From a virus (taxonomy: Monodnaviria > Loebvirae > Hofneiviricota > Faserviricetes > Tubulavirales), in the IMG/VR virus record IMGVR_UViG_2648501784_000014: a DNA stretch of 8,509 nucleotides. The stretch is one strand, 5' to 3'. The notes under the pieces are model-generated. The model saw only the letters and a list, made by a program, of their open reading frames with translations, did not search any database and was not told where the DNA came from. Position 1 is the first letter of the stretch. Each line of letters begins with the position of its first letter. Made by a program: the position numbers and the translations under genes. Shown one piece after another: positions 1-8,509 of this stretch.

Positions 1-261
1 AGCCTGAACGTCAATCAGCAGTTAAGTAACTTTGTCAAAACGGATACGGGCGTGAATGATTCGCCAACGTTGCTCAAGCGTGAGGTGGATACGTCGCTGA
101 CTCTGAAAGATGGCGATATTGTGTTGCTGGGTGGTCTGGCAGAAAACAAGGATTCGCAGGCCAGCACAGGATTATCATTTCTGCCAAAGAGCTGGAGTCA
201 GAAGTCTGACGAGAAGAGCCGCACGGATATGGTTATTCTGTTACAGGTCAAAAAAGTTTGA
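1..261 (+). CDS. gIV: Secretin pIV, C-terminal 86 codons (5' end cut by window start; duplicate of the 3' end of 7188-8396)
   Basis: Open in frame 1 from base 1 to the TGA at 259-261. Translation [12 protein letters not shown]...VILLQVKKV is identical to the C-terminus of the 402-aa secretin ORF. Confidence 0.85.
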
Positions 262-374
262 GTTCCGTCTGAGGTGGGATTATCAGGACGCGGCATCTCA
301 GTTTACCCACCACAACGCCAGTGCGCATAATGTGACACGCGTTATGTTGAAAAGGCCGCTGCGATACTCTCCAC
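1..374. repeat. Terminal redundancy, copy 1 (identical to 8136-8509)
   Basis: Base-by-base comparison of the first 374 bases with the last 374 shows identity. Implies a circular 8135-bp molecule opened with overlap, or a head-to-tail tandem array. Confidence 0.95.
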
Positions 375-413
375 CGCAGCGGCCTTTTTATACATAACGT
401 CATTGTGCGCACT
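320..413. other. Pair of inverted dif-like XerC/XerD sites flanking a GC stem-loop; putative CTXphi-type attP
   Basis: Site 1, + strand 320-352: aGTGCGCATAA / TGTGACACGCG / TTATGTTGAAA. Site 2, - strand of 387-413: AGTGCGCACAA / TGACG / TTATGTATAAA. Compared with E. coli dif GGTGCGCATAA-TGTATA-TTATGTTAAAT (recalled), XerC arms match 10/11 and 9/11, XerD arms 9/11 and 8/11. Central regions are 11 and 5 bp rather than 6. Confidence 0.65.
354..390 (+). terminator. GC-rich hairpin plus T-run: putative rho-independent terminator after gene IV, also the tip of the putative attP hairpin
   Basis: GGCCGCTGCG (354-363) and CGCAGCGGCC (375-384) form a perfect 10-bp stem with an 11-nt loop, followed by TTTTTAT (385-391). 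Lies 93 bp downstream of the secretin stop codon. Confidence 0.5.
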
Positions 414-665
414 GAACCTTAAAGGATTTCAGTGTCCTTACTTAGTTTGTTGTGTATGGTCATCACCAACGGTAGGACAAGCGTTATCAGGCTGAATATT
501 GTCATGCCTGTGATGCTGCCAACAACAAAATGCTTTATCAGCAGGTCAAGAATTAAGTCACTGGTTGTCTGCATATTGCTTTTTAGCAATCATGTAATAC
601 TGCACTTTTGTACCACGGGTGGTACTTTTTGCTCTTCTAGCAATCGCCAAATCGTTTTGTGATTA

Positions 666-854
666 CTATTTTTTTTGTGTAATTTCATTTTTCGAAATCA
701 TATCTTGTTTTGCATCGTTTAAATATTCATCTATCAGATAATTCACGATCTCCGACCATTTTGTGACTTTTCCTGTTTTGGCTGTGATATCTACGGCTGC
801 TCTTTCTATTCTCAGATATCTCTCGTTGCTTATACCAATACTTTTCCTGCTCAT
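666..854 (-). CDS. Small DNA-binding regulator, ribbon-helix-helix (Arc/CopG-like) pattern; putative phage repressor
   Basis: 62-aa ORF with ATG at 854 and a GGGAGA Shine-Dalgarno about 8 nt upstream on the - strand. Sequence KSIGISNERYLRIERAAVDITAKTGKVTKWSEIVNYLIDEYL fits the strand, helix, G-turn, S/T-x-S-E-helix layout of ribbon-helix-helix proteins. Transcribed divergently from rep. Confidence 0.65.
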   Translation of the reverse strand: MSRKSIGISNERYLRIERAAVDITAKTGKVTKWSEIVNYLIDEYLNDAKQDMISKNEITQKK

Positions 855-885
855 TTTTTGTTCTCCCGTTCTTTTGGCTTAGTTT

Positions 886-980
886 AATGCAACATAGCAA
901 AATTGCATTTGTGCACAATTGCACTTGTGCATCTGGTTTTTTTGTGTATTATTTTTGCAAGTTTGCACAATTGCACACGG
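886..980. promoter_or_regulatory. Divergent promoter/operator region with iterated TGCA-core repeats and a 13-bp direct repeat
   Basis: Eight TGCA cores in about 90 bp (at 888, 904, 912, 921, 928, 956, 964, 972). Exact 13-bp direct repeat TGCACAATTGCAC at 912-924 and 964-976. Candidate rep promoter: TTGTGC (925-930), 16-nt spacer, TATTAT (947-952). Candidate regulator promoter on the - strand: TTGTGC (complement of 913-918) and TATGTT (complement of 891-896). Confidence 0.45.
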
Positions 981-1001
981 ATAAAGCATTTGGGGGGATT
1001 A

Positions 1002-5862: not shown

Positions 5863-5864
5863 TC

Positions 5865-7076
5865 ATGCCAGTTATCACCGGAAATCTGGGTCAGGGTAAA
5901 GGCATTGTTGCAGCTTATTTTGCCTCACTTTATTATCGCCGTGGATTACGGGTTGCGGCAAATTATCCGCTTAACACTGAATATATGTCCTCAGGGTCGG
6001 ATAACCCCGTTACGGTTATTCCGGCCATGCCCCGCATTGAAGACTTTGAGCTTCTTGGTCGTGGATGTCCTGAAAATGAAAAAACACGCTTCGGGGCGTT
6101 ATTTCTTGATGAGTGTGCGACATGGCTGAATACCCGTGGTTTTGCCCGTAAGGACAGATTACCGTTAATTGACTGGCTGATACATTCCCGTAAGCTGGGC
6201 TGGGATGTTTATCTGATTGCACAGCATGAAGATATGATTGATTCCCAGATAATTAAGGCGATGGGGGCTAAAATTATTCGCTGCCGCCGTCTTGATGAAT
6301 TACGTGTTCCTGTGATTACGCCACTGATGGAATTATTCAGACCAGGAAAAACAGGGGTTGCATCAGGTAAAAGGGGGATTATTCCTCATTACGTGGCTGC
6401 CAGTACGTTTCTTTATGACGGCACGATTCACGCGGCACGTCGTCCCGTAGATAAAATCATTATCAGGGCTGCGGATTATTACAACGTTTACGACACTAAT
6501 TTCATTTTCTCTGACGGAATGGAGCTGCTTAATGGCCGTTTTGTGGATATGCGTGCTGTTTATTCCGTTTTGCCCGGGCGCACACTTAAAACCATGAATC
6601 CGTTATCTCAACAACCCGAAAAAAAGGCCACCCCACAGAAAAAGCCGTGGGGCAAGTTGATTGCCTTTCTTTTCCTCGTCACCGCGATGATTGCCGTTAC
6701 CCGACATTATTTCTCCGGCGATCGGGAGGTTAGTGCCGCTGTCCCTCCTGTGCCTGAAAGCACCGTGACACCTGCACATCCTTTGCCTGCGTCAACGGTT
6801 GTATCAGAGCTGAGACAGAAAAAACCGGATGTGCTTCCGGTATCAAAGGAGTGGCGGCTTGCCGGATATGTCAGGGGGGCAAGTCCTTATTTTGTGCTGT
6901 TGGGTCCGTCGGGTCAGGTGCGACGTTATACCGCTTTTCAGCCATGGAACGGCAGCGCCACGGAACTGAATGTTGACGGTGAAAGGGTGACGTTCTGGTC
7001 AGGCCCGTCGGGGACGGCATCAAAGGGGGATACTCTGACTGACAAAATGCTTTCGTTTGATGTGAAGGGTAAATAA
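5865..7076 (+). CDS. gI: Assembly ATPase pI (Zot-family P-loop NTPase), 403 aa
   Basis: AAGGGG Shine-Dalgarno 5 nt before ATG 5865. Walker A-like GNLGQGKG and Walker B LFLDEC. The stretch [15 protein letters not shown]...[20 protein letters not shown]...[14 protein letters not shown] aligns with M13 pI LLVLDECGTWFNTRSW...IIDWFLHARKLGWDIIFLVQ...VYCRRLDRITLPFV (recalled). One membrane helix ([14 protein letters not shown]). Confidence 0.9.
6594..7076 (+). CDS. Possible pXI-like product from an in-frame internal start of gene I (160 aa)
   Basis: In-frame ATG 6594 (Met244 of pI) lies just before a basic stretch and the single membrane helix ([35 protein letters not shown]). This parallels M13 pXI, which starts at Met241 of pI. 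No clear Shine-Dalgarno. Confidence 0.3.
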
Positions 7077-7085
7077 GACAGAGGA

Positions 7086-7150
7086 CACTCCGCTCGCCGC
7101 AGACCCAGCGACCGAACGTAGTGAGCGAGTGGTCGAGGAAGCGGAATATC
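7086..7150. other. GC-rich intergenic element resembling the ColE1/pMB1 region downstream of ori; candidate primosome-assembly / single-strand initiation site
   Basis: CCGCTCGCCGCAG (7090-7102), GACCGAACG, AGTGAGCGAG and GAGGAAGCGGAA closely match the pBR322/pUC sequence CCGCTCGCCGCAGCCGAACGACCGAGCGCAGCGAGTCAGTGAGCGAGGAAGCGGAAGAG recalled from memory. Imperfect inverted repeats (ACTCCGCTC / GAGCGAGT; TCCGC / GCGGA). Sits in a 111-bp spacer between gene I and gene IV. Confidence 0.4.
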
Positions 7151-7187
7151 TTCATGACTGAAAAACAGCACTTACGCACGGTATAAC

Positions 7188-8396
7188 ATGATGAGAATGA
7201 TTAACTTACTGACAGCATTTCTTTTTTTGACTTCGGCGTGTGTGCATGCCTCGTCTCCGGCCTTTTTTGTTGACCGTATTCCGCTCAATGCAGCGATACA
7301 GCTGGCTCAGGAAGATATTTTCAGGCGTCAGTATGCGTTGCCGCCTGAACTTGCCAGCGATACCCGTCCGGTGACGCTGGATTTAAGTCTGACGGGCGAT
7401 CAGAAAAAACAGCGTGAAGAGTATGTGCGCTGGCTCAGACAACTGAATATTTCTGTTGAGACTCGTAATGGTGTGGATCATTATCGCTCGTTTAAACCCG
7501 TGGCTGCGCCGGAAAAACTGGTTTCATGGGTATATACACCATTTAACCGTTCGCCAGCTTATCTGGCCGCCGTGCTTTCGGGTACAACGACAGGGCGCTC
7601 AGCACAGGTATCTTCAGAGAATGCGGCTGCATCGTCTCCGGTAACTTCCGGCTCATTCTTATCAGGTGAGGGTGATTCACTGGTTTTCAGGGGGACACGT
7701 TCAGAACTGGCACGCCTTAAGGAGCTGGTTCCGCTGGTTGATGTTCCGGCTCAGGGGGTTGTGGTAACGGGGTATATTTATGAGGTACAGACAGGGCGCT
7801 CTGAAGGTTCGGGGCTGGCACTGGCTGCAAAACTCTTATCAGGGCGTTTTGGTGTCAGCGTGGGTTCCTCATCCTCGATGGGGAATTACATTTCATTCAG
7901 CTCCGGTACGCTGAATGCGATGTATGAGCTGTTCAGCACGGATAACCGCTTTAAGGTGGTATCCGCGCCGCAGCTGCGCATGGATTCAGGCAGGGAGGCG
8001 ATATTCTCCGTCGGTGAGCAGGTTCCGGTTCTTGGCAGCGTGTCTTATGAGGATGGTAAAGCCGTTCAGTCCGTGACGTATCGTGATTCGGGGGTGATAT
8101 TCAAAGTTAAGCCGGTTATCACGTCGTCGCGTATCAGCCTGAACGTCAATCAGCAGTTAAGTAACTTTGTCAAAACGGATACGGGCGTGAATGATTCGCC
8201 AACGTTGCTCAAGCGTGAGGTGGATACGTCGCTGACTCTGAAAGATGGCGATATTGTGTTGCTGGGTGGTCTGGCAGAAAACAAGGATTCGCAGGCCAGC
8301 ACAGGATTATCATTTCTGCCAAAGAGCTGGAGTCAGAAGTCTGACGAGAAGAGCCGCACGGATATGGTTATTCTGTTACAGGTCAAAAAAGTTTGA
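7188..8396 (+). CDS. gIV: Secretin pIV (outer-membrane export channel), 402 aa
   Basis: Signal peptide [22 protein letters not shown]-terminal secretin domain with [42 protein letters not shown] and [32 protein letters not shown] matching M13 pIV blocks (recalled). Start could be ATG 7188, 7191 or 7197; no strong Shine-Dalgarno. Confidence 0.9.
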
Positions 8397-8509
8397 GTTC
8401 CGTCTGAGGTGGGATTATCAGGACGCGGCATCTCAGTTTACCCACCACAACGCCAGTGCGCATAATGTGACACGCGTTATGTTGAAAAGGCCGCTGCGAT
8501 ACTCTCCAC
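8136..8509. repeat. Terminal redundancy, copy 2 (identical to 1-374)
   Basis: Same comparison as copy 1. Contains a second copy of dif-like site 1 (8455-8487) and the left half of the GC stem. Confidence 0.95.

What the first reader, a model, noticed from the sequence alone, without database searches (positions are those of the whole stretch)
1..8509. Window contains 1.046 genome lengths: circular replicative form or tandem prophage
The exact 374-bp identity between the ends means the unit is 8135 bp and the sequence wraps. Tandem prophage arrays are what CTXphi-type integrated phages need to produce ssDNA, so a true tandem repeat would be biologically meaningful; an assembly overlap of a circular molecule would not.
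Basis: seen in the sequence. Interest (0 to 1): 0.45.

Follow-up and report, generated by a model that had tools for sequence, protein, structure and literature searches.

The report
Wrapped contig of a dif-integrating filamentous phage
The window is one whole draft-assembly contig that runs once around an 8,135-base CTXphi-like filamentous phage of E. coli and 374 bases further, an ordinary assembly signature that cannot by itself show whether the phage was a free circle or a head-to-tail prophage array, although its close relatives are nearly always arrays.

Summary
Bases 1-374 equal 8136-8509 exactly, so the unit is 8,135 bp.

The window is the complete contig JHRG01000126.1 (8,509 bp) of a draft isolate assembly, GCA_001265345.1. 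No flanking sequence exists to inspect.

The unit is an intact inovirus:
- an RstA-like HUH Rep
- coat, pIII-like and pVI-like genes
- Zot/pI and its own secretin
- a small divergent regulator

It has no integrase. It carries two inverted dif-like sites (320-352 on +, 387-413 on -) that fold in the + strand into a CTXphi-style attP(+) hairpin.

Relatives at 96-99% identity sit precisely at E. coli dif. In closed replicons, 11 of 13 are head-to-tail arrays of 2-3 copies, one of them on a conjugative Citrobacter plasmid. None is recorded as a free circle.

The copy-to-copy junction in those arrays matches the window's attP region base for base. Sequence therefore cannot separate replicative form from array.

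I favour an array at dif, possibly with replicative form made from it (about 0.6). A free circle alone is about 0.25. The phage is a new member of a known kind, and the redundancy itself is routine.

The parts
1..374 (.). Left copy of the exact terminal direct repeat (secretin 3' end, attP1, left half of the apical hairpin).
   Evidence: identical to 8136-8509 at all 374 positions.
8136..8509 (.). Right copy of the terminal direct repeat. The contig ends at the last loop base of the hairpin.
320..352 (+). attP1: XerC arm AGTGCGCATAA (320-330), 11-nt spacer TGTGACACGCG (331-341), XerD arm TTATGTTGAAA (342-352). A second copy lies at 8455-8487.
   Evidence: In relatives the host/phage exchange maps between the XerC arm and base 334.
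350..388 (+). Perfect 14-bp hairpin with an 11-nt loop, followed by a T run. It is the apex of the attP(+) fold and a likely terminator of the secretin gene.
   Evidence: (I3).
387..413 (-). attP2, an inverted dif-like site. On the minus strand it reads AGTGCGCACAA TGACG TTATGTATAAA.
   Evidence: I4, I5.
319..414 (+). Predicted attP(+) fold of the packaged strand. XerC and XerD arms are formed by attP1/attP2 pairing, with a 6-nt bulge (333-338) in the central region.
   Evidence: -39.8 kcal/mol, z = -9.4. The same architecture is seen in relatives.
414..585 (+). Non-coding block conserved among relatives whose regulator modules differ. Candidate ori(+) or packaging region (inferred).
   Evidence: near-invariant columns. 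(several hairpins, z = -4.6).
666..854 (-). 62-aa divergent small regulator, presumed repressor. It is part of a swappable module spanning about 586-1001.
   Evidence: (phrog_2503).
897..976 (.). Operator-like repeated palindromes (TGCACAATTGCA) between the regulator and Rep.
   Evidence: (D1, I1, I2, I6).
1002..3002 (+). Rolling-circle replication initiator, gpA/RstA family, 666 aa.
   Evidence: PF05840, 6.5e-49; phrog_91, 7e-129; 29% identity to CTXphi/pre-CTX RstA, E about 1e-51.
3033..3458 (+). 141-aa protein in the position of the ssDNA-binding or RstB-type gene. Function not shown.
   Evidence: phrog_30648, unknown function.
3427..3766 (+). Two small overlapping ORFs (58 and 67 aa) in the position of the minor coat proteins.
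   Evidence: gene calls. No family hits.
3791..4033 (+). 80-aa major-coat-like protein (signal-like N-terminus, hydrophobic core, basic C-terminus).
   Evidence: translation; weak hit to phrog_17608.
4094..5503 (+). pIII-like adsorption protein with a Gly/Ser linker array (4702-5040).
   Evidence: (PF05357).
5506..5862 (+). pVI-like minor coat protein, 118 aa.
   Evidence: phrog_1944.
5865..7076 (+). Zot/pI morphogenesis ATPase, 403 aa.
   Evidence: PF05707; phrog_1675, 6.6e-50.
7188..8396 (+). pIV-type secretin, 402 aa. Its last 261 nt are what is repeated at 1-261.
   Evidence: PF00263; phrog_1012, 1.7e-114.

Best explanation
The contig is an assembler's walk once around a repeating 8,135-bp unit plus 374 bp. 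The unit is the genome of a CTXphi-type, XerCD-exploiting filamentous phage of E. coli.

Shown: reads joining the phage's secretin end to its att/regulator end must have existed in the data.

Inferred as most likely: those reads came from a head-to-tail prophage array at the chromosomal dif site, possibly together with replicative form made from it.

Proposed mechanism, by analogy with CTXphi and supported here by anatomy:
1. The packaged + strand folds attP1 and attP2 into a duplex that carries a XerC arm and a XerD arm.
2. XerC exchanges one strand pair with dif, and replication completes the integration.
3. A functional dif is rebuilt on the right of the prophage, so further copies can add in tandem.
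4. In double-stranded form the two sites have 11-nt and 5-nt spacers and cannot recombine, so the prophage cannot excise.
5. New + strands are made when the RstA-like Rep nicks an origin in one copy and terminates at the same origin in the next copy. This needs at least two copies.
For: Wrap and contig status.

Inovirus gene set with no integrase.

RstA-like Rep.

Inverted dif-like sites and a strong + strand hairpin.

Precise dif integration in relatives:
- attL keeps the host's first base, while junctions and attR keep the phage's, and dif is rebuilt at attR.
- An empty site reconstructed from the flanks is found at 100% identity and coverage in other E. coli.

Arrays in closed replicons:
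- Directly inspected.
- Three more inferred from a full-length junction match.
- Only 2 single copies.

No free-circle record of this lineage among 20,395 E. coli RefSeq records, where all 71 Rep places are chromosomal. None among 72,556 PLSDB plasmids either.

[quoted passage not shown] YpfPhi forms arrays of 2-4 copies (PMC4266046). Short-read drafts collapse such arrays (PMC7307601).
Against: - The array junction and the circular attP are the same sequence, so nothing in the window itself favours an array.
- The contig passes both expected branch points (320 and 333/334) in the phage-to-phage direction at both ends. This is what a circle with no competing host junctions would give.
- YpfPhi is held only as an extrachromosomal replicon in some natural Y. 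pestis lineages and in transduced E. coli (PMC4266046).
- A replicative-form-like circle of another dif-type inovirus is deposited as a 9.6-kb plasmid, so free circles do get assembled.
- The phage is intact and could be actively replicating.
- The prior from closed genomes may be biased against small circles.
Confidence: 0.6

Rival explanations
1. Free circle only. The strain carried the phage as an extrachromosomal double-stranded replicative form, with dif unoccupied, and the 374-bp redundancy is the usual overlap left when a circular molecule is assembled as a linear contig.
For: - The contig is separate from any host sequence and wraps cleanly.
- It runs through both att branch points without stopping.
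- The phage is intact.
- YpfPhi is extrachromosomal in several hosts (PMC4266046).
- A related circle is deposited as a plasmid.
Against: - No closed E. coli genome or PLSDB plasmid holds this lineage as a small circle.
- All 40 Rep-positive closed genomes have it in the chromosome.
- For CTX-type phages, replicating forms integrate efficiently and usually in tandem (PMC4439123).
Confidence: 0.25
2. A single integrated prophage plus a co-resident circle (for example after superinfection, or helped by a neighbouring heterologous element that supplies a second origin). The wrap would come from the circle and the prophage copy would be collapsed onto it.
For: - Single copies exist at dif.
- One single copy sits behind a small Rep-only element.
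- One array is followed by a different inovirus.
- CTXphi can use RS1 or TLC neighbours in this way (PMC4246890).
Against: Single copies are the minority (2 of 13 closed replicons). There is no direct evidence in the window.
Confidence: 0.08
3. An array that sits in a Xer site of a large conjugative plasmid rather than at chromosomal dif.
For:: a 96.6% relative is present as two tandem copies in a 363-kb IncHI1B/IncFIB plasmid of Citrobacter youngae, with hybrid attL and attR; a different inovirus sits in tandem at the same backbone position of a Klebsiella plasmid.
Against: There is one such case against ten chromosomal arrays. It cannot be tested from the window.
Confidence: 0.04
4. A genuine linear genome with 374-bp direct terminal repeats, or a duplication created by misassembly.
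For: Only the bare fact of a terminal repeat.
Against: - The gene set is that of an inovirus, whose genomes are circular ssDNA.
- The repeat cuts through the secretin gene and through a hairpin loop.
- The joined sequence is colinear with junctions seen in eight inspected arrays.
Confidence: 0.02

Closest known systems
CTXphi of Vibrio cholerae (CTX-type integrative element exploiting Xer)
   Same: - Rep of the RstA/gpA family (29% identity).
- A small divergent regulator in a swappable module next to a conserved non-coding block.
- No integrase.
- Two inverted dif-like sites with over-long and over-short spacers that pair in the + strand.
- dif rebuilt on the right of the prophage.
- Tandem and heterologous arrays.
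   Different: - The host is E. coli or Citrobacter.
- It carries its own pIV secretin, whereas CTXphi uses the host's EpsD (PMC4439123).
- No toxin cargo.
- The attP fold is about 96 nt rather than about 150 nt.
- Protein identity is low, and there is no DNA similarity to any named phage record.
YpfPhi (Yersinia pestis) and CUS-1 (E. coli O18:K1:H7)
   Same: - Enterobacterial dif-integrating inoviruses listed as CTX-type (PMC4246890).
- Inverted XerC/XerD sites in the packaged genome.
- Arrays of 2-4 copies or an extrachromosomal state (PMC4266046).
- Size about 8-9 kb.
   Different: By the literature their replication genes II and V are over 85% identical to those of UPphi901 (PMC7307601), whereas this Rep is RstA/gpA-type. 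I did not compare sequences directly. None of the 40 Rep-positive closed genomes (38 of them listed) is one of the K1 reference strains I know (RS218, IHE3034, UTI89, S88).
UPphi901 group (Lineavirus-like, Enterobacterales)
   Same: - dif-integrated and found as tandem doubles or triples.
- Arrays are collapsed in short-read drafts.
- A variable Gly-rich pIII linker (PMC7307601; compare).
   Different: - A different replication module and different core genes.
- UPphi is described as carrying one dif copy, not an inverted pair.
- An element with a II/X-family Rep sits next to this phage in one array but is a separate phage.
Ff and IKe coliphages
   Same: Gene order (coat, pIII, pVI, pI, pIV), own secretin, Gly-rich pIII linkers.
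   Different: Ff and IKe do not integrate, have no att sites, and use a different Rep family.

Membership tests
Filamentous phage (Inoviridae sensu lato) | Zot/pI-type morphogenesis ATPase | tested here: met
   PF05707, 3.2e-9, above cutoff; phrog_1675, 6.6e-50.
Filamentous phage (Inoviridae sensu lato) | Rolling-circle HUH replication initiator | tested here: met
   PF05840, 6.5e-49; phrog_91, 7e-129.
Filamentous phage (Inoviridae sensu lato) | Small genome with co-oriented genes in the order replication, coat, adsorption, assembly | tested here: met
   8,135-bp unit, with all genes on + except one regulator.
Filamentous phage (Inoviridae sensu lato) | Short major coat protein with a signal peptide and a single hydrophobic helix | tested here: inconclusive
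   The 80-aa ORF at 3791-4033 has that shape by eye, but its only family hit is weak (E = 4e-4).
Filamentous phage (Inoviridae sensu lato) | Circular ssDNA packaged in secreted filaments | not testable with these tools
   Needs virion isolation.
CTX-type Xer-exploiting integrative element | Integration exactly at dif, with dif rebuilt on one side | tested here: met
   Met in relatives only: chromosome; plasmid Xer site. The window itself has no flanks.
CTX-type Xer-exploiting integrative element | Two dif-like sites in inverted orientation that pair in the + strand to give XerC and XerD arms | tested here: met
   (z = -9.4).
CTX-type Xer-exploiting integrative element | Double-stranded sites unsuitable for Xer recombination (spacers not 6-8 bp) | tested here: met
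   Spacers of 11 nt (attP1) and 5 nt (attP2) read. The consequence (no excision) is inferred.
CTX-type Xer-exploiting integrative element | No phage-encoded recombinase | tested here: met
   none of the called genes matches a recombinase. A sister variant carries an IS110-family transposase instead of the att module.
CTX-type Xer-exploiting integrative element | Lysogens carry tandem arrays | tested here: met
   Met in relatives: 11 of 13 closed replicons (against 49 and 50). Not testable for this strain.
CTX-type Xer-exploiting integrative element | ssDNA is the integrating form, XerC makes a single strand exchange, and phage production is by rolling-circle replication between copies | not testable with these tools
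   Needs genetics or biochemistry. Taken from PMC4246890 and PMC4439123 for CTXphi.
YpfPhi / CUS-1 lineage | Shared replication module (genes II and V) and near-identical core genes | not tested
   No YpfPhi or CUS-1 sequence was fetched. The literature (PMC7307601) implies a different Rep family.

The most novel reading that the evidence does not exclude
This is an unnamed enterobacterial lineage of CTX-type filamentous phage (RstA-like Rep plus its own secretin). Besides chromosomal dif, it inserts in tandem into Xer sites of conjugative megaplasmids and so can travel by conjugation. It also exchanges immunity modules and, in a sister form, swaps the Xer module for an IS110-family transposase. 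On this reading the window would be its actively replicating circular form in a clinical isolate.
Probability: 0.3. Interest if true: 0.45.

Novelty: new member of a known kind. Interest (0 to 1): 0.2.

Why it matters
For genome scanning, a terminal direct repeat on a small contig shows only that junction reads exist. It does not show a circular molecule. For Xer-exploiting inoviruses the array junction and the circular att site are the same sequence, so "complete circular genome" calls based on such repeats can hide collapsed prophage arrays.

For biology, the contig gives a clean reference unit for an E. coli phage that appears to live like CTXphi. For such a phage, copy number at dif decides whether virions can be made at all. 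The relatives seen in diarrhoeal isolates and on a CTX-M-15 plasmid make that worth a read-level check.

Tried and rejected
- **Named phage records.** Megablast of the unit against named phage records found nothing. Distant blastn matched only the Gly/Ser linker and a short secretin stretch.
- **dif search.** Searching the window and loci for E. coli dif with up to 3 mismatches found nothing, because attP1 has an 11-nt spacer. The sites were found by reading the sequence and by a regex on the XerC arm.
- **Source contig in the viral collection.** An exact-pattern scan of the viral contig collection returned four relatives but not the source contig, and none has terminal repeats.
- **Same phage elsewhere.** Exact-protein look-ups for Zot, pIII and Rep found the phage only on its own contig and on one metagenome scaffold.
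- **Rest of the assembly.** I could not reach the other contigs or the reads of GCA_001265345.1, so the dif locus of this strain was not seen.
- **Accession in the literature.** A text search for the accession found no paper.
- **NCBIfam.** It added nothing beyond sub-threshold secretin matches.
- **Contig-end geometry.** I considered using it as evidence. The right end lies 41 nt past the crossover and exactly at the end of a hairpin loop. I rejected it as decisive because the left end fits no branch point and the contig reads through the same hairpin near its 5' end.
- **Linear terminally redundant genome.** Rejected on gene content and on colinearity with array junctions.
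Full report
**Observation.** The window is 8,509 nt. Its first 374 nt are identical to its last 374 nt at every position, which gives a unit of 8,135 bp and 1.046 units in the window. An exact-protein look-up showed that the window is the complete NCBI contig JHRG01000126.1 (contig length 8,509) of the draft isolate assembly GCA_001265345.1. The redundancy is therefore a feature of a deposited contig. There is no sequence "beyond the window" to inspect.

**What the unit is.** All large ORFs lie on the + strand in the order typical of filamentous phages:
- a 666-aa replication initiator of the gpA/RstA family (1002-3002; PF05840 6.5e-49; phrog_91 7e-129)
- a 141-aa protein of unknown function
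- two small ORFs
- an 80-aa coat-like protein
- a pIII-like adsorption protein with a Gly/Ser linker array (4094-5503; PF05357; repeats at 4702-5040)
- a pVI-like protein
- Zot/pI (5865-7076)
- a pIV-type secretin (7188-8396, whose 3' end is the part repeated at 1-261)

A 62-aa ORF on the minus strand (666-854) faces Rep across repeated palindromes (897-976) and looks like the repressor. No recombinase is present. By tblastn the Rep is closest, at 29% identity, to RstA of CTXphi, pre-CTX and VFJ among named phages. No named phage record shares DNA similarity beyond the linker.

**Attachment region.** Just after the secretin stop the + strand carries AGTGCGCATAA-TGTGACACGCG-TTATGTTGAAA (320-352). 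This is a XerC arm and a XerD arm like those of E. coli dif, but separated by 11 nt instead of 6. A perfect 14-bp hairpin follows (350-388). After it, on the opposite strand, comes AGTGCGCACAA-TGACG-TTATGTATAAA (413-387), with a 5-nt spacer. Folded as single-stranded DNA, the + strand 319-414 forms one long hairpin in which the two XerC arms pair and the two XerD arms pair, with a 6-nt bulge in the central region (-39.8 kcal/mol, z = -9.4). Three relatives fold the same way. This is the architecture described for CTXphi attP(+) and proposed for YpfPhi (PMC4246890, PMC4266046).

**Relatives show how it integrates.** Relatives at 96-99% identity occur in the chromosomes of 40 of 5,426 closed E. 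coli genomes and never on their plasmid records. Those with the att module lie between hipA and the ydeS fimbrial genes, which is the dif locus.
- The left junction is host flank + [G or A]GTGCGCATAA + phage spacer.
- The right junction is phage flank + AGTGCGCATAA + TGTATATTATGTTAAAT + host flank, so dif is rebuilt on the right.
- In two genomes attL keeps the host's first base G, while the internal junctions and attR carry the phage's A.
- In a plasmid case attL keeps the plasmid's AGTA and attR the phage's AGTG.
- The exchange therefore lies between the XerC arm and the fourth base of the central region, where XerC is known to cut.
- An empty site rebuilt from the flanks plus dif is found at 100% identity and coverage in other E. 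coli.

**Arrays are the rule.** I used a 530-nt query centred on the crossover. A full-length match to it can only be a phage-to-phage junction. Nine closed chromosomes have such a junction. I inspected six of them directly, plus two further replicons.

| Replicon | Copies |
|---|---|
| 700481 | two, plus a different inovirus |
| E100341 | two |
| TD225-C4 | three |
| 100416 | two |
| AST205 | two |
| Z1323CEC0015 | two |
| 10035776-3 | two, spanning the record origin; one copy has an IS66 element in Rep |
| Citrobacter youngae conjugative plasmid (363 kb) | two |

Single copies were seen twice, in strain 600029 and in E300010, where the copy sits behind a small Rep-only element. That makes 11 of 13 Xer-site insertions arrays. 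Copies within an array range from 100% identical to about 98-99.5% identical, with different linker lengths. This fits the literature. Replicating CTXphi almost always inserts in tandem, cannot excise, and makes new + strands by rolling-circle replication from one copy's origin to the next (PMC4439123, PMC4246890). YpfPhi forms 2-4 copies or stays extrachromosomal (PMC4266046). Short-read drafts collapse such arrays (PMC7307601).

**Why the window cannot decide.** The junction between copies in the arrays is base-for-base the window's sequence across the secretin end, attP1, hairpin, attP2 and the downstream block. A circle and an array therefore give the same contig. The wrap does prove that phage-to-phage junction reads existed, which rules out a lone single-copy prophage as the only form.

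The contig ends are not clearly informative either:
- The right end (374) lies 41 nt past the crossover and exactly on the last loop base of the apical hairpin.
- The left end lies inside the secretin gene with no feature.
- The contig reads through the same hairpin near its 5' end.
- Both expected branch points are passed in the phage-to-phage direction.
- An overlap of 374 nt is longer than usual de Bruijn k values, so it came from read-level or pair-level layout (my inference).

I record the hairpin coincidence as unexplained.

**Verdict.** The redundancy is an assembly wrap of a cyclic or tandem unit (near certain). Weighing the closed-genome survey and the biology of CTX-type phages against the clean, host-free wrap and the known extrachromosomal state of YpfPhi, my estimates are:
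- an array at dif, with or without replicative form: about 0.6
- a free circle alone: about 0.25
- a single prophage plus a circle: about 0.08
- an array on a plasmid: about 0.04

The phage is a new, unnamed member of a known kind. The finding itself is routine, and read mapping would settle it in minutes.

**Other observations.** The att block plus 414-585 is nearly invariant among relatives, whereas the regulator/operator module (586-1001) exists in at least three unrelated versions, like the heteroimmune rstR modules of CTXphi. A sister form replaces the att/regulator module with an IS110-family transposase and sits as a single copy between hcxB and ybiB/dinG. Two different inoviruses occupy, in tandem, the same backbone position of MOBH megaplasmids in Citrobacter and Klebsiella.

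Noticed in passing
L012 (OV141394.1, Citrobacter youngae pCY-CTXM-15) 4579-22170: Two head-to-tail copies of a 96.6% relative are inserted in a 363-kb IncHI1B/IncFIB conjugative plasmid. attL is plasmid AGTACGCATAA plus the phage spacer. attR is the phage XerC arm plus TGTACG TTATGTTAAAT. The phage has therefore used a plasmid Xer site and could move by conjugation.
   Followed up: partly
L017 (NZ_CP022441.1, Klebsiella sp. LY plasmid) 12000-24090: A different, IKe/UPphi-like inovirus sits in tandem next to the same hns / thermonuclease / DUF1173 backbone genes as in pCY-CTXM-15. Its att hairpin is 89% identical to window 320-411. The same plasmid site seems to be used repeatedly by filamentous phages.
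   Followed up: partly
L009 (NZ_AP022261.1) 3027-11405, and other closed genomes: A sister form has an IS110-family transposase directly upstream of Rep in place of the att/regulator module. It sits as a single copy between hcxB and ybiB/dinG, not at dif. Some genomes carry both forms or several Rep copies (up to 5).
   Followed up: partly
window 586-1001 versus L002 9870-10735 and L010 13380-14010: The regulator/operator module exists in at least three unrelated versions, while the att block and 414-585 are nearly invariant. This is an immunity-module swap like that of the CTXphi rstR variants.
   Followed up: partly
window 364-374 / 8499-8509: The contig ends exactly on the last loop base of the 14-bp perfect hairpin at the apex of the attP fold, 41 nt past the Xer crossover. 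The chance of an end that close is about 1%, and no explanation fits both contig ends.
   Followed up: partly
window 4702-5040: A Gly/Ser linker array of 15-nt units lies in the pIII-like gene. Its length differs among relatives and even between the two copies of one array (L002). The antisense ORF 4591-4908 (PPPEL repeats) is a by-product of this array.
   Followed up: partly
L001 17415-20068; L014 8577-10742: Heterologous arrays at dif. In L001 two copies of this phage are followed by a different inovirus with a II/X-family Rep. In L014 a 3-kb element with only a regulator and a Rep precedes a single copy, reminiscent of RS1 or TLC next to CTXphi.
   Followed up: no
L011 (NZ_AP045060.1, 9,613-bp 'plasmid' of E. 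coli JNE25-005): This record looks like the circular replicative form of another dif-type inovirus deposited as a plasmid, with the same inverted attP1/attP2 architecture. Its annotation is fragmented.
   Followed up: partly
L016 26098-28686 (NZ_CP159170.1): An IS66-family element interrupts Rep in one copy of a two-copy array, and the chromosome record's origin was placed at the junction between the copies.
   Followed up: no
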